In this document: positions 57,467-60,419 of the stretch, piece by piece
How the letters are laid out: every line of letters starts with the position of its first letter
How positions within the stretch are numbered: position 1 is the first letter of the stretch
DNA from: Escherichia coli
Lineage (GTDB): Bacteria; Pseudomonadota; Gammaproteobacteria; Enterobacterales; Enterobacteriaceae
Strand: one strand, 5' to 3'
Assembly (NCBI RefSeq): GCF_051903065.1
Contig: NZ_CP178438.1
Length of the DNA stretch: 64,000 nt
Translations under genes and position numbers: made by a program
The notes under the pieces: model-generated
Told to the model about the DNA's origin: nothing
The model's input: only the letters and a program-made list of their open reading frames with translations
Database searches by the model: none

Positions 57467-58041
57467 ACCGGGCCTCCGGTTGTATCGCCGCCTTTCAGGA
57501 CGCCAGTATGCTGATGCGCATCAACCACGATCCCGTTAGAACTCATCGCTCCGCCGCCCTGGGTAACGCCACCATTGATCACCACTTCGCTGTTAATGCG
57601 CGTGCGGTCAGCCTCCAGTACAAACTCACTGGTTTTCATGGTGATGTTGTCAGCAGCCTCAATGACCATTGATTTGATGCCCCTGACATACCAGCGCCCG
57701 GTGGCGGGTTCGTATTCAAACCAGCCACCGTCAGGATGTTCTGTCACGCAGGCGTCCGCCGACGTCGACGGTGGTGCGAACTGATTCGAATAGACAGCGG
57801 GCAGCGCAAAGGCGGTTTCCAGATTGCCGCCCAGACTCAGCAGCACCACCTGCTCACCTTCCGATGGTCGCCACCATGTACGGGCATTCCCGGCACGCAG
57901 CGTCAGCCAGCTGATCCAGTTGGTTTCAAGCTCGCCCGTTTTCACCCGGCAAAGCCAGTTTTCCCTGTCCACTTCGGTGACTACCCCTGTGCGGATCAGG
58001 TTGGTGATAAGGCGCATGATTTCGGTTAATTGTGCGTTCAT
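57463..58041 (-). CDS. V: baseplate spike/assembly protein V (P2 gpV-like)
   Basis: 192 aa; first gene downstream of a TGT-N12-ACA dyad. Confidence 0.82.
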   Translation of the reverse strand: MNAQLTEIMRLITNLIRTGVVTEVDRENWLCRVKTGELETNWISWLTLRAGNARTWWRPSEGEQVVLLSLGGNLETAFALPAVYSNQFAPPSTSADACVTEHPDGGWFEYEPATGRWYVRGIKSMVIEAADNITMKTSEFVLEADRTRINSEVVINGGVTQGGGAMSSNGIVVDAHQHTGVLKGGDTTGGPV

Positions 58042-58087
58042 AGGGAAAGGTTGCCATCAGGGGAAGAAAGGCGGCAATGCTGCAACT

Positions 58088-58105
58088 TGTATCAGTGCTG
58101 ATACA
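58088..58105. promoter_or_regulatory. Ogr-box-type dyad TGT-N12-ACA upstream of V (late promoter candidate)
   Basis: TTGTATCAG-TGCTGA-TACAA; extended perfect 9-bp inverted arms; centred about 55 bp upstream of the V start. Confidence 0.6.
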
Positions 58106-58109
58106 AAGA

Positions 58110-58556
58110 TCACCCCGCCAGCCATTGCAGAATCATGTCACGGGTCATTGCCTCAACATCATCATTTACACCCAGAAGGCGACGCTCTGCGTAACGCACC
58201 TCCGGTCCCTTACGACTGACGCGATCTCGCAGGCCGTAATGGTGAACGCGGGCAATGCGCTGCACCTTGCCTTCAAACTGCACGCTGGCAGAGTCGGTGC
58301 TGGCGGCAGTTTTCAGGTATTTTGTGGTGCGCAGCTTTGCAAACATCTGACGTTTGATACGGCCTTTTTTACTGCGTGCTGTTACCCGTCGCGGTTCATA
58401 GCTGCTGCCGTCAGGGTTGCGCTGCATCCTGATATTCTGCTGCTGTGTCCGGCGAAGTTCCTGCGCCAGCTGGCGCATCATGCGGCTTCTCGTGGCTGGT
58501 TCCAGATTCGCCAGCAAGGCACTCAGCCAGTCGTCCACCTTCTGCAGTTCAGCCAC
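58110..58556 (-). CDS. S: tail completion protein S (P2 gpS-like)
   Basis: 148 aa; position and size. Confidence 0.78.
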   Translation of the reverse strand: MAELQKVDDWLSALLANLEPATRSRMMRQLAQELRRTQQQNIRMQRNPDGSSYEPRRVTARSKKGRIKRQMFAKLRTTKYLKTAASTDSASVQFEGKVQRIARVHHYGLRDRVSRKGPEVRYAERRLLGVNDDVEAMTRDMILQWLAG

Positions 58557-59001
58557 GTTTCACCGTCCACATTTCTTCAGGTGCATCAGGTTCCGCTATA
58601 GCTTCAACGCTCGACACACTGCCGTCAGTGCTGACCAGCACACGCTCCGTCAGTTGCAGGTTCAGGCTGATATCACAGACATCGTTGCGCAGAATATCCA
58701 CCTCAAAGGTGAATAACTTTTCCCGTAAAGCTGGATTATTGATGGCATCGGGCTGGTTATCCCGCAGCCACAGCAAAACCGGGGCCATCAGCAGATTCTG
58801 GTCGCCGCTGAAATCCTCAATCACCACGTTCAGGGTGTAGCGGTACTCCCATGACATGGAGCTGGCCCCCGTGGCAACCAGCGAACCGTTATCCACAAAC
58901 AGATGCAGTTTGTCCGGGTTATTGCGGACATAAGGCACCGCCTTATTGAGTGCGTGGCGCAGGGATTGTGGTTTGTTCACTATTTCGCTCCTGACACGCA
59001 A
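58549..59001 (-). CDS. R: tail completion protein R (P2 gpR-like)
   Basis: 150 aa; position and size. Confidence 0.78.
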   Translation of the reverse strand: MRVRSEIVNKPQSLRHALNKAVPYVRNNPDKLHLFVDNGSLVATGASSMSWEYRYTLNVVIEDFSGDQNLLMAPVLLWLRDNQPDAINNPALREKLFTFEVDILRNDVCDISLNLQLTERVLVSTDGSVSSVEAIAEPDAPEEMWTVKRG

Positions 59002-59233
59002 TAATCATGTCCACTTTGTCTGCACAGACCGCCCAGGCGGCCTCCGTTTCATCCAGCAACGCGTTCAGATCACCGTTAGTGTGCGGCGCTGTCTGATCCA
59101 GCCGACACGGCGTCACTCGCGGACAGCCACTGACGGTAAGCTGCACCTCCGGTGAATGCCGGGCGTTTCCGCAGCCGGATAATGTCAGCAGGCAAAGGAG
59201 TATCAGCCCAGCGGCGTAAATCCTCGTTCTCAC
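58943..59233 (-). CDS. lysC: outer-membrane spanin lipoprotein (LysC/Rz1-like), embedded in lysB in another frame
   Basis: Lipobox LLTLSGC, Pro-rich mature part; starts within lysB and runs into R. Confidence 0.6.
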   Translation of the reverse strand: MRTRIYAAGLILLCLLTLSGCGNARHSPEVQLTVSGCPRVTPCRLDQTAPHTNGDLNALLDETEAAWAVCADKVDMIIACQERNSEQTTIPAPRTQ

Positions 59234-59504
59234 GTTTCAGTTCCTCGATCCGGTGTTGTCGTTGACTCAGCAGCGCGCTAGTCTGTTCTGCTTCGGCATA
59301 GAGCCGCGCCTGCTCCCGGTTATTGGTTTCAGCCAGAATGGACAGACCGATCAGCTGGCTGTTTTTCTTCGTCAGTTCCTGCGCTTTACTTTTCAGCGCC
59401 GTGCGCTGCGTTTCGATGGTGTGGCTGGCGCTGTTAAGCCGCCACGACTGCCAGCCCAGCGCAACGAGTGCCAGCGCCACCACTACTGCCAGTGCACGCG
59501 TCAT
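59076..59504 (-). CDS. lysB: inner-membrane spanin (LysB/Rz-like)
   Basis: 142 aa; N-terminal TM segment, coiled-coil periplasmic part. Confidence 0.75.
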   Translation of the reverse strand: MTRALAVVVALALVALGWQSWRLNSASHTIETQRTALKSKAQELTKKNSQLIGLSILAETNNREQARLYAEAEQTSALLSQRQHRIEELKRENEDLRRWADTPLPADIIRLRKRPAFTGGAAYRQWLSASDAVSAGSDSAAH

Positions 59505-60016
59505 AGTCCAGCTCCTTTAAGGCACCAGGCCATCTCCCGCGCACGGCGGTTATCCAGCCCCTGATTAAACACACCTTTTACATACACCCAGCGCGGCAAC
59601 TGTCGGCACGCATCCGCCCAGCGCCGCTGATTGAGCAATTTCACCAGCGTGGAACTACAGGCATTGCCCGTCCCCACGTTGAAGGCAAACGACACCGTAG
59701 CGTCATACACCTTCTGCGGTGGCTGTTGCTTCACACACCTTTCCAGCGCCCGCTCCACACGTAGCACGTTGGAGATCAGCCCTTCCGCTGCCTGTCGTTC
59801 CGTAATGGTTTTGCCTGGAATGACGCCAGATGTATTACCAATGCCGTCGGTCCAGACACCCGCGCTGCACTGATACGGCTGCAGACGACAGCCTTCGTAA
59901 TCGGCAATCAGTTTCAGCCCCTCCACGGAGGTGTGAAGCTGCTGAAAACCCGGCAGCGTGGCAGCAATAGCCAGCACGGCCCCGACAAGGCAGCGTTTAA
60001 CGATTGATGGATTCAT
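59501..60016 (-). CDS. K: endolysin, T4-lysozyme-like with SAR-type N-terminal segment
   Basis: 171 aa; N-terminal Ala/Gly-rich hydrophobic stretch CLVGAVLAIAATLPG then EG-x-RL...Y...GVWT-GIG lysozyme pattern. Confidence 0.8.
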   Translation of the reverse strand: MNPSIVKRCLVGAVLAIAATLPGFQQLHTSVEGLKLIADYEGCRLQPYQCSAGVWTDGIGNTSGVIPGKTITERQAAEGLISNVLRVERALERCVKQQPPQKVYDATVSFAFNVGTGNACSSTLVKLLNQRRWADACRQLPRWVYVKGVFNQGLDNRRAREMAWCLKGAGL

Positions 60017-60212
60017 AGTCCTCCCGCGAGATCTGCCCGTCGCGCAGAAGCTGGTAGGCTTTGTGTTTGTAGTACCAGTTGATAGCCAGCATCAGCACAC
60101 CAATCATCAGGCCGCCCAGCGTTGAGGCATCCTTGATGGACAAATCGCCCAGCCAGGCCAGCACAACGGCGATGCAGTACGTGATAAAGGCGCTGATTCG
60201 CTCAAGCGTCAT
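59997..60212 (-). CDS. small two-TM holin (pinholin-like)
   Basis: 71 aa, two hydrophobic helices and charged C-terminus, immediately upstream of the endolysin. Confidence 0.7.
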   Translation of the reverse strand: MTLERISAFITYCIAVVLAWLGDLSIKDASTLGGLMIGVLMLAINWYYKHKAYQLLRDGQISREDYESINR

Positions 60213-60215
60213 AAT

Positions 60216-60419
60216 TCAGTCCCATAGCTGGACGGTCTGCACGGTGGTGGTGGTCGGAATGTCCGGCAGCTCCACCTGCAGCCCGTGAGGTAAAAAGGGG
60301 CCATATTCGGCAAGCCCCGGATTTGCCTTCAGTACCTGCTCCGTGACACCCTGCGTGCGCCCGTAATGACGCCAGCAAAGCGCGTCCACCGTGTCATACT
60401 GATGCGCACGCACTTTCAT
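60216..60419 (-). CDS. X: tail protein X (P2 gpX-like)
   Basis: 67 aa, same size and position as P2 gpX. Confidence 0.75.
   Translation of the reverse strand: MKVRAHQYDTVDALCWRHYGRTQGVTEQVLKANPGLAEYGPFLPHGLQVELPDIPTTTTVQTVQLWD

What the first reader, a model, noticed from the sequence alone, without database searches (positions are those of the whole stretch)
58943..60212. Lysis cassette looks like pinholin plus SAR endolysin with an embedded spanin pair, and no lysA-like gene
The 71-aa two-TM holin and the endolysin with a weakly hydrophobic Ala/Gly-rich N-terminal segment resemble the phage 21 S/R arrangement rather than a canonical holin with soluble lysozyme. lysC (lipoprotein) is nested out of frame in lysB and runs into R. 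No additional antiholin-like ORF is seen between the endolysin and lysB.
Basis: partly seen in the sequence, partly recalled or inferred. Interest (0 to 1): 0.4.

Follow-up and report, generated by a model that had tools for sequence, protein, structure and literature searches.

The report
P2-like prophage lysis cassette, known type
This is the ordinary lysis gene cluster of a P2-like prophage that carries a small two-helix holin and a membrane-tethered, P1-type lysozyme in place of P2's own pair; near-identical copies are already annotated in named phages and in hundreds of E. coli genomes.

Summary
On the minus strand, between tail gene X and tail genes R/S, lie a 71-aa holin (59997-60212), a 171-aa lysozyme (59501-60016), lysB (59076-59504) and lysC (58943-59233). 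No lysA fits, because the lysozyme stop overlaps the lysB start (ATGA).

- **Lysozyme:** it is very probably a signal-arrest-release (SAR) endolysin, but of the phage P1 Lyz type, not the phage 21 R type. It has the P1 pattern C9 / E41 / C43 / C50 / T56. P1 Lyz is its best solved-structure match by sequence and by predicted fold.
- **Holin:** it has two transmembrane helices, belongs to Pfam's HP1 holin family, and is a remote homologue of the phage 21 pinholin. Its first helix is strongly hydrophobic, unlike the weak, membrane-escaping first helix of the phage 21 protein, and it has no dual start. "Pinholin" is therefore unproven.
- **Spanins:** the pair is "overlapped" as in P2, not "embedded".
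- **lysA:** absence is a common polymorphism. Many close relatives carry a LysA homologue at this spot; phages Cartapus, RE-2010 and roughly 7% of complete E. coli genomes do not.

Verdict: already known, low interest.

The parts
59997..60212 (-). Holin, 71 aa, class II (two transmembrane helices), HP1 holin family. Single ATG start 3 nt after the stop of gene X.
   Evidence: PF16080 at 36.7 bits (cut-off 28.8) and phrog_20 holin at E 1.9e-26. 100% identical to the annotated holin of phage Cartapus.
60147..60197 (-). Holin helix 1, residues 6-22 (ISAFITYCIAVVLAWLG). Strongly hydrophobic.
   Evidence: Kyte-Doolittle mean 2.12, Gly/Ala/Ser/Thr fraction 0.35. S21 helix 1 gives 0.52 and 0.55.
60069..60128 (-). 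Holin helix 2, residues 29-48 (ASTLGGLMIGVLMLAINWYY). Contains G33-G34-x3-G38 and N45.
   Evidence: hhalign aligns it with S21 helix 2: G43-S44-x3-G48 and N55. G34 and Y47 are nearly invariant in the family.
59501..60016 (-). Endolysin, 171 aa, GH24/T4-lysozyme type with an N-terminal SAR-like segment. Its start overlaps the holin's end by 20 nt and follows a GGGAGGA Shine-Dalgarno sequence.
   Evidence: PF00959 at 137 bits. Best solved-structure match by sequence is P1 Lyz 1XJT, E 2.1e-26. The AlphaFold2 model (pLDDT 88) best matches 1XJT, TM 0.82. Start context.
59945..59992 (-). SAR-like segment, residues 9-24 (CLVGAVLAIAATLPGF), preceded by K7 R8. Contains Cys9.
   Evidence: Translation. 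Cys9 is present in 53 of 53 full-length homologues. It is also present in phages Midge, EtG, YenM_06.16-2, RE-2010 and HP1. pLDDT is 85-90.
59849..59896 (-). Catalytic and caging motif E41-G-C43-x6-C50-x5-T56.
   Evidence: Translation. These residues align column for column with P1 Lyz E42/C44/C51/T57. R21 and T4 lysozyme have Asp at the C50 column.
59076..59504 (-). lysB, inner-membrane spanin, 142 aa with an N-terminal anchor. Its ATG overlaps the endolysin stop (ATGA).
   Evidence: TIGR03495 at 179 bits. phrog_89 at E 6e-48. 36% identical to P2 LysB.
58943..59233 (-). lysC, outer-membrane lipoprotein spanin, 96 aa, GTG start. In the +1 frame inside lysB, extending 133 nt beyond it and 38 nt into R.
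   Evidence: NF038368 at 123 bits, PF23793 at 56 bits. 43% identical to P2 LysC. The start sits at the same codon as the P2 ATG.
59171..59182 (-). LysC lipobox L18-S19-G20-C21. The residue after the Cys is Gly, not Asp.
   Evidence: Translation.
58549..58980 (-). Tail completion gene R (context). Likely GTG start at 58980 behind an AGGAG.
   Evidence: PF06891 at 159 bits. 54% identical to P2 R. Start context.
60216..60419 (-). Tail gene X (context), immediately upstream of the holin.
   Evidence: PF05489 at 117 bits. 61% identical to P2 X.

Best explanation
This is the lysis cassette of a P2-like (Peduoviridae) prophage. The P2 holin and endolysin (Y, K) are replaced by a different, old module: an HP1-family class II holin followed by a P1 Lyz-type SAR endolysin. 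The P2-type spanins LysB and LysC are kept, and lysA is absent.

Proposed course of events; all steps are inferred from homology and none was tested here.
1. The genes are translated from the late operon and are tightly coupled, with overlaps of 20, 4, 158 and 38 nt.
2. The Sec system exports the lysozyme through its N-terminal segment (residues 9-24). The segment is not cleaved and holds the enzyme on the outer face of the inner membrane.
3. While tethered, the catalytic Cys50 is locked in a disulfide with Cys43.
4. The holin accumulates as a two-helix hairpin with both ends in the cytoplasm. At its set time it makes lesions that collapse the membrane potential.
5. The lysozyme's N-terminal segment then leaves the bilayer. 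Cys9 attacks the Cys43-Cys50 bond and frees Cys50. The segment folds onto the enzyme body, as in the active P1 Lyz structure.
6. The wall is degraded, and the LysB-LysC complex then disrupts the outer membrane.

The holin descends from the same stock as the phage 21 pinholin, and I lean slightly towards small, depolarising lesions. The phage 21 step in which helix 1 leaves the membrane is doubtful here.
For: **Gene identities and P2 context.**
- Family matches for all genes.
- X, lysB, lysC and R are 61, 36, 43 and 54% identical to P2. The holin versus Y and the endolysin versus K show no convincing similarity.

**Endolysin.**
- P1 Lyz is the best solved-structure match by sequence (E 2.1e-26, against 1.5e-17 for R21).
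- E41/C43/C50/T56 align with P1 E42/C44/C51/T57.
- Cys9 and Cys50 are present in 53 of 53 homologues and Cys43 in 52 of 53.
- The same three cysteines occur in the endolysins next to HP1-family holins in HP1, Midge, EtG, YenM_06.16-2 and RE-2010.
- In the AlphaFold2 model, residues 11-30 reach pLDDT 85-90. The whole chain matches active full-length P1 Lyz (1XJT, TM 0.82) better than the inactive form (1XJU, TM 0.58). The top three matches are all full-length SAR endolysins.
- There is no Ala-X-Ala-type cleavage site after the hydrophobic stretch (direct reading).
- A paper on phage KP12 reached the same P1-like SAR assignment for a protein differing at 7 of about 171 positions. Expert curators annotate the phage Midge homologue as 'SAR endolysin' and its holin as 'holin class II'.

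**Holin.**
- Two hydrophobic segments.
- PF16080 above its cut-off.
- hhalign against the S21 family gives probability 96.2%, E 2.7e-9, spanning both helices.
- In the seven lineages examined it always sits directly upstream of a three-cysteine SAR lysozyme.
Against: - Nothing here tests export, tethering, disulfide state or hole size.
- The N-terminal stretch of the lysozyme is only 16 uncharged residues. Per residue it is more hydrophobic than the P1 or R21 SAR segments (Kyte-Doolittle 2.11 against 1.48 and 1.39). Its release behaviour cannot be read from composition.
- Cys9 lies at the very start of the segment and does not align with P1 Cys13.
- Holin helix 1 (Kyte-Doolittle 2.12) is more hydrophobic than its own helix 2 and than any SAR segment examined.
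- The holin misses the Pfam cut-off for the S21 family.
- The hydropathy scales were applied by a simple home-made scan, not a trained topology predictor.
Confidence: 0.8

Rival explanations
1. The holin is a canonical large-hole class II holin, not a pinholin. Both helices stay in the membrane and the lesions would also let a soluble endolysin through. The SAR endolysin merely responds to the depolarisation, as P1 Lyz does with the canonical holin LydA.
For: - Helix 1 is strongly hydrophobic (Kyte-Doolittle 2.12; Hessa-scale sum -0.56 over 17 residues), unlike S21 helix 1 (0.52).
- There is no dual start.
- Two positions where S21 has Thr (T51, T54) are Met41 and Ile44 here (alignment).
- SAR endolysins are documented to work with canonical holins.
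- Expert curators label the phage Midge homologue 'holin class II', not pinholin.
Against: - Profile-level homology to the S21 pinholin spans both helices, with the Gly-x3-Gly and Asn positions of helix 2 conserved.
- More distant family members have S21-like weak first helices (Kyte-Doolittle 0.46-0.99).
- In every lineage checked, the family is seen only next to SAR lysozymes.
Confidence: 0.4
2. The holin is a true phage 21-type pinholin. Helix 1 leaves the membrane, and helix 2 alone assembles into small heptamer-like channels.
For: - Homology to S21.
- Same length, 71 aa.
- Obligate pairing with a SAR endolysin in all relatives examined.
- S21-like weak first helices in distant family members.
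Against: - Helix 1 of this clade is as hydrophobic as a stable membrane anchor and shows no enrichment in Gly/Ala/Ser/Thr (0.35).
- The holin is below the Pfam cut-off for the S21 family.
- There is no antiholin start.
Confidence: 0.35
3. The N-terminal segment of the lysozyme is an ordinary cleavable Sec signal peptide. The mature enzyme would be a soluble periplasmic protein controlled only by its disulfide or by the membrane potential.
For: The uncharged stretch is short (13-16 residues), follows two basic residues and ends in Pro-Gly. This is the general layout of a signal peptide.
Against: - No small-X-small cleavage motif follows the stretch, here or in 53 homologues.
- Cys9 is invariant, which would be pointless in a discarded peptide.
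- The predicted fold packs residues 11-26 onto the enzyme body with pLDDT 85-90, as in active P1 Lyz.
Confidence: 0.07
4. The lack of lysA reflects a recent deletion that leaves this prophage with defective or mistimed lysis.
For: Most of the closest phage records, and many E. coli prophages, carry a 125-aa LysA homologue between the endolysin and lysB.
Against: - The two forms differ by a replaced block, not a clean deletion.
- The window's junction matches the functional phage RE-2010. The same layout occurs in phages Cartapus and YenM_06.16-2 and in roughly 390 complete E. coli genomes.
- In P2, lysA is annotated as non-essential.
Confidence: 0.05

Closest known systems
Escherichia phage Cartapus (Elveevirus) and Salmonella phage RE-2010 (Felsduovirus) lysis cassettes
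   Same: Same gene order and gene lengths: X, 216-nt holin, 516-nt endolysin, 429-nt lysB joined by ATGA, lysC, R, S, with no lysA. Cartapus is 96.7% identical in DNA over 2 kb and its holin is 100% identical. The RE-2010 endolysin C-terminus is identical and its lysB N-terminus nearly so.
   Different: Only point differences. lysC is not annotated in either record.
Phage P1 endolysin Lyz (PDB 1XJT and 1XJU), the prototype SAR endolysin activated by disulfide isomerisation
   Same: GH24 fold. A basic N-terminus followed by an uncharged segment that carries a Cys. Glu-Gly-Cys-x6-Cys-x5-Thr centre. 38% identity. Best match by both sequence and predicted fold.
   Different: The N-terminal segment is shorter (16 against 24 uncharged residues) and more hydrophobic per residue. 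Its Cys sits at the segment's first position rather than about six residues in. The gene lies in a P2-type cassette directly after its holin, whereas the main P1 holin gene (lydA) is unlinked.
Phage 21 S/R (pinholin S21 68/71 plus SAR endolysin R21)
   Same: Holin then SAR lysozyme, in that order and overlapping. A 71-aa two-helix holin homologous at profile level. GH24 endolysin with a SAR segment.
   Different: R21 has Asp, not Cys, in the catalytic triad and no SAR cysteine. S21 helix 1 is weak and six residues longer. S21 has a dual start. The window holin is below the Pfam cut-off for that family. The spanins differ (embedded Rz/Rz1 type in lambdoid phages, from my own knowledge, against overlapped LysB/LysC here).
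Phage P2 lysis module Y, K, lysA, lysB, lysC
   Same: Same position between X and R. Orthologous lysB and lysC with the same +1-frame overlapped layout and the same 38-nt overlap with R.
   Different: P2 Y is a three-helix holin and K a soluble endolysin, neither convincingly similar to the window's proteins. P2 has lysA and the window has none.
Haemophilus phage HP1 hol/lys
   Same: Namesake of the holin's Pfam family. A two-helix holin directly followed by a lysozyme with a Cys in its N-terminal hydrophobic segment and the Glu-Gly-Cys-x6-Cys motif.
   Different: HP1 holin helix 1 is weakly hydrophobic (Hessa-scale sum +3.9 against -0.6). In HP1 the cassette sits after the tail sheath and tube genes rather than after X.

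Membership tests
SAR endolysin, P1 Lyz subclass (catalytic Cys blocked by a disulfide) | GH24 / T4-lysozyme-type catalytic domain | tested here: met
   PF00959 at 137 bits, cut-off 22.3. Predicted fold matches 1XJT with TM 0.82.
SAR endolysin, P1 Lyz subclass (catalytic Cys blocked by a disulfide) | N-terminal uncharged, Gly/Ala/Ser/Thr-rich segment after basic residues, with no signal-peptidase site | tested here: inconclusive
   K7 R8 followed by 16 uncharged residues; Gly/Ala/Ser/Thr fraction 0.44; no small-X-small site. The segment is shorter and more hydrophobic per residue than the P1 or R21 segments. No trained signal-peptide predictor was available.
SAR endolysin, P1 Lyz subclass (catalytic Cys blocked by a disulfide) | Catalytic triad Glu-x8-Cys-x5-Thr, with Cys where T4 lysozyme has Asp | tested here: met
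   E41, C50 and T56 align with P1 E42, C51 and T57. R21 and T4 lysozyme have Asp in that column.
SAR endolysin, P1 Lyz subclass (catalytic Cys blocked by a disulfide) | Partner Cys two residues after the catalytic Glu, and a free Cys in the SAR segment | tested here: met
   C43 aligns with P1 C44. C9 is present in 53 of 53 homologues and in HP1, Midge, EtG, YenM_06.16-2 and RE-2010.
SAR endolysin, P1 Lyz subclass (catalytic Cys blocked by a disulfide) | Sec-dependent export without cleavage, membrane tethering, and release on depolarisation | not testable with these tools
   Needs expression and fractionation experiments.
R21-type SAR endolysin (phage 21) | Glu-x8-Asp-x5-Thr triad and regulation without cysteines | tested here: not met
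   Cys50 occupies the Asp column and the SAR segment carries a conserved Cys.
Phage 21 S pinholin family (Pfam PF04971) | Score above the family's curated cut-off | tested here: not met
   23.2 bits against a cut-off of 26.
Phage 21 S pinholin family (Pfam PF04971) | Common descent (profile-profile similarity over both helices) | tested here: met
   hhalign probability 96.2%, E 2.7e-9, 51 columns.
Phage 21 S pinholin family (Pfam PF04971) | Helix 1 is a weakly hydrophobic SAR segment able to leave the membrane | tested here: not met
   Kyte-Doolittle 2.12 and Gly/Ala/Ser/Thr fraction 0.35, against 0.52 and 0.55 for S21. This is composition only, not behaviour.
Phage 21 S pinholin family (Pfam PF04971) | Dual-start motif giving an antiholin form | tested here: not met
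   There is one Met at the start and no in-frame start upstream before the stop of X.
Phage 21 S pinholin family (Pfam PF04971) | Lesions too small to pass a soluble endolysin | not testable with these tools
   Needs the lambda R complementation test.
HP1 holin family (Pfam PF16080), class II holins | Score above the curated cut-off, two transmembrane helices, charged C-terminal tail | tested here: met
   36.7 bits against a cut-off of 28.8. Two hydrophobic segments. The tail, residues 49-71, has 5 basic and 4 acidic residues (direct reading).
P2 LysB/LysC two-component spanin, overlapped architecture | Inner-membrane spanin with an N-terminal anchor, plus an outer-membrane lipoprotein gene that starts inside it in another frame and ends beyond it | tested here: met
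   TIGR03495 at 179 bits and NF038368 at 123 bits. Lipobox LSGC. +1 frame, 158-nt overlap, 133 nt beyond the lysB stop. Definition of 'overlapped'.
Embedded spanin architecture (lambda Rz/Rz1) | Lipoprotein gene wholly contained within the inner-membrane spanin gene | tested here: not met
   lysC ends 133 nt downstream of the lysB stop.
P2 LysA family (phrog_162; NCBIfam NF038378) | Four-helix membrane protein gene between the endolysin and lysB | tested here: not met
   There is no room for it because of the ATGA overlap. The relatives' 125-aa protein and P2 LysA both match phrog_162 over their full length. The window has no such ORF.

The most novel reading that the evidence does not exclude
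The enterobacterial branch of the HP1 holin family (this window, Cartapus, RE-2010, KP12) may have turned the weak, escaping first helix of its phage 21-like ancestors into a stable membrane helix. It would then no longer work as an S21-type pinholin, and would trigger by a different two-helix mechanism, possibly with larger lesions. Separately, LysA travels with two unrelated holin types (P2 Y and this one) and is freely gained or lost. It may therefore not be a holin-specific antiholin at all, but a holin-independent modulator of lysis timing.
Probability: 0.25. Interest if true: 0.4.

Novelty: already known. Interest (0 to 1): 0.15.

Why it matters
It matters little beyond correct annotation. 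The cassette is a common, already sequenced and annotated variant of the P2-like lysis module. A paper on a near-identical protein has already noted its P1-like SAR endolysin.

Three points are useful.
- Its endolysin should be labelled P1-type (cysteine-regulated), not phage 21-type.
- The holin should be labelled class II, HP1 family, rather than pinholin until it is tested.
- lysC needs its full 96-aa GTG-start reading frame, which several public records omit or truncate.

The spread of first-helix hydrophobicity within one holin family, and the on/off distribution of lysA among near-identical cassettes, would make convenient natural material for anyone studying how holin topology and LysA set lysis timing.

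Tried and rejected
- **P2 Y/K equivalence: rejected.** The holin versus Y gives only a 54-residue, 28% match in helix regions (E 1e-4). The endolysin versus K gives nothing significant.
- **Hidden antiholin: rejected.** I looked for an upstream in-frame start on the holin and for small membrane ORFs on both strands. The holin has a single start. The only extra hydrophobic ORF (59323-59520, plus strand) is antisense to lysB and has no support.
- **Simple deletion of lysA: rejected.** Identity to the lysA-carrying phage 813R9 is 93-100% on both sides. It falls to 75-88% over window ~59350-59540, so a block was exchanged. The window's version matches RE-2010.
- **Primary papers not held.** I tried to read Xu 2004, Park 2006, Sun 2009 and Kuty 2010. 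The P1 Lyz disulfide mechanism is therefore cited from my own knowledge of Xu et al. 2005 (Science 307:113) and Kuty et al. 2010 (J Bacteriol 192:5682), both listed.
- **Two literature searches failed.** One, for the cysteine numbers, returned only unrelated papers. Another failed on a term that was too short.
- **Promoter and terminator scan:** nothing informative inside the cassette.
- **No trained predictor.** No topology or signal-peptide predictor was available. I used a sliding-window scan with the Kyte-Doolittle scale and the Hessa 2005 scale (values from memory). It was checked only against control proteins of known topology.
Full report
**What is there.** The finding's interval (58943-60212) spans, on the minus strand, four overlapping genes. 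They are flanked upstream by the P2-type head and tail genes N, M, L and X, and downstream by R, S and V.
- Holin, 71 aa, 59997-60212.
- Lysozyme, 171 aa, 59501-60016. Its start overlaps the holin's end by 20 nt and follows a GGGAGGA ribosome-binding site.
- lysB, 59076-59504. Its ATG shares ATGA with the lysozyme stop.
- lysC, 58943-59233, with a GTG start at the codon where P2 has ATG.

lysC lies in the +1 frame of lysB. It overlaps lysB by 158 nt, runs 133 nt beyond it, and overlaps R by 38 nt, exactly as in P2. Family matches are unambiguous:
- PF05489 for X;
- PF16080 (HP1 holin family) for the holin, 36.7 bits against a cut-off of 28.8;
- PF00959 for the lysozyme;
- TIGR03495 for LysB;
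- NF038368 and PF23793 for LysC;
- PF06891 for R.

**Relation to P2.** X, LysB, LysC and R are 61, 36, 43 and 54% identical to their P2 counterparts. The holin is not convincingly similar to P2 Y, and the lysozyme is not similar to P2 K. Only the holin-endolysin pair has been exchanged. This kind of module swapping among P2-like phages is documented.

**The endolysin.**
- Its best solved-structure relative by sequence is phage P1 Lyz (1XJT, E 2.1e-26). Phage 21 R scores E 1.5e-17.
- In a four-way alignment, E41, C43, C50 and T56 fall in the columns of P1 E42, C44, C51 and T57. R21 and T4 lysozyme have Asp where this protein and P1 have Cys.
- After K7 R8 comes an uncharged run, C9-F24.
- Cys9 and Cys50 are present in all 53 near-full-length homologues retrieved, and Cys43 in 52.
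- The same three cysteines recur in the lysozymes of phages RE-2010, Midge, EtG, YenM_06.16-2 and HP1.
- An AlphaFold2 model has mean pLDDT 88, with 85-90 over residues 11-30. It matches full-length active P1 Lyz best (TM 0.82 over 173 columns) and the inactive form less well (TM 0.58). The next hits are the full-length SAR endolysins RrrD and R21.

From my own knowledge of Xu et al. 2005 and Kuty et al. 2010 (listed), P1 Lyz is held inactive by a Cys44-Cys51 disulfide. It is activated when Cys13 of the released SAR segment attacks that bond. The window's protein has every sequence element of that design.

Two caveats apply. Its hydrophobic run is short (16 residues against 24) and more hydrophobic per residue (Kyte-Doolittle 2.11 against 1.48 for P1 and 1.39 for R21). 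Cys9 also sits at the first position of the run. A cleavable signal peptide is unlikely for three reasons: no small-X-small site follows the run, Cys9 is invariant, and the segment is modelled as part of the fold. I had no trained predictor to confirm this. The same assignment has been published for KP12.peg.319, a protein that differs from this one at 7 of about 171 positions.

**The holin.**
- A simple hydropathy scan reproduces the expected helix counts for P2 Y (3), P2 K (0) and LysB (1). It finds exactly two segments here, residues 6-22 and 29-48.
- The protein is below Pfam's cut-off for the phage 21 S family (23.2 against 26 bits).
- A profile of 24 family members compared with a profile of 24 S21 relatives gives hhalign probability 96.2% and E 2.7e-9 across both helices. 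G33-G34-x3-G38 and N45 align with S21 G43-S44-x3-G48 and N55. I checked my recalled S21 sequence against the protein database; it matches at 100%.

The holin is thus a remote homologue of the pinholin. The feature that makes S21 a pinholin in mechanism, however, is a weakly hydrophobic first helix that leaves the membrane, and that feature is not seen here.
- Helix 1 of the window's holin scores Kyte-Doolittle 2.12, with 35% Gly/Ala/Ser/Thr.
- S21 helix 1 scores 0.52, with 55% Gly/Ala/Ser/Thr.
- More distant members of the same family do have S21-like first helices (0.46-0.99).
- There is no dual start here, although Yersinia and Erwinia members begin MGLKMEK or MGLTMEK.
- SAR endolysins function with either pinholins or canonical holins.

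The partner's identity therefore does not settle the matter. I leave hole size open, with a slight lean to small depolarising lesions.

**Spanins.** The pair is the P2 LysB/LysC type. In published terminology this is the 'overlapped' architecture, and 'embedded' is reserved for lambda Rz/Rz1. LysC has a lipobox, LSGC, with Gly after the Cys.

**lysA.** The window has none. Most of the closest phage records do carry a 378-nt gene for a 125-aa membrane protein between the endolysin and lysB (four to five hydrophobic segments in my scan); these include 813R9, KP12, 4LV2017 and 500465-1. That protein and P2 LysA both match phrog_162 over their full length and are 27% identical, so it is a true LysA homologue.

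Among phage records:
- 83 hold this holin family;
- 48 show the LysA homologue by translated search;
- Cartapus, RE-2010 and YenM_06.16-2 are among those that lack it.

Among 5,426 complete E. coli genomes, 1,022 match the endolysin-lysB junction:
- about 386 records match at 95% or more; the sampled ones are a single piece with no gene in between;
- most of the rest match in two pieces around a 'DNZ54_00345 family protein', which is the LysA homologue.

These counts are read from identity bands and sampled rows, so they are approximate. The two forms differ by an exchanged block, window ~59350-59540. The window's block matches RE-2010. Absence of lysA is a frequent natural variant and is compatible with functional phages.

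**Verdict.** The cassette is an already sequenced, annotated and partly discussed type. Cartapus is 96.7% identical over 2 kb with the same layout. Expert curators annotate a more distant version as 'holin class II, SAR endolysin, putative antiholin, i-spanin, o-spanin'. Four points need correcting:
- the endolysin is P1-type, not phage 21-type;
- 'pinholin' is unproven;
- the spanins are overlapped, not embedded;
- the absence of lysA is not a distinctive feature.

Noticed in passing
Relatives of window 59501-59520 (endolysin 3' end); proteins P0135, P0126 and others: The protein database holds dozens of 296-aa proteins in which this endolysin is fused in frame to the LysA-like protein (junction ...REMACVYREQTEMNKKLISG...). 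P0135 alone is on 30 contigs, and similar fusions come from complete genomes. This looks like a 1-nt deletion near the endolysin stop in lysA-carrying prophages. It would anchor the lysozyme's C-terminus in the membrane.
   Followed up: partly
window 58943-59233 and L001-L003, L006: lysC is missing from the Cartapus and RE-2010 annotations. In 813R9 and KP12 it is annotated as an N-truncated ORF of 56-57 aa without the signal peptide and lipobox. The 813R9 endolysin is annotated from Val14, which loses K7 R8 C9.
   Followed up: partly
L008:1795-2016, L009:1795-2016: Yersinia and Erwinia members of the holin family begin MGLKMEK or MGLTMEK. This is a possible dual-start (holin/antiholin) motif that the window's holin lacks.
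   Followed up: no
window ~59350-59540: Identity to phage 813R9 drops from 93-100% to 75-88% over the last ~40 nt of the endolysin and the first ~150 nt of lysB. Here the window instead matches Salmonella phage RE-2010. This marks a mosaic exchange boundary between Elveevirus-like and Felsduovirus-like cassettes.
   Followed up: partly
window 59323-59520 (+): A 65-aa TTG-start ORF antisense to lysB has a membrane-grade hydrophobic run (ISWLFFFVSSCALLFSA). It is probably a by-product of the opposite-strand coding sequence.
   Followed up: no
window 58041-58110: S and V are separated by only 68 nt. The non-essential orf30 that P2 carries on the opposite strand between S and V is absent here.
   Followed up: no
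E. coli genome hit H82 (strain Rosetta2-DE3): The laboratory B-strain derivative carries a remnant in which lysB and a truncated copy of this lysozyme abut a capsid scaffold gene. It appears to be a decayed P2-like prophage.
   Followed up: no
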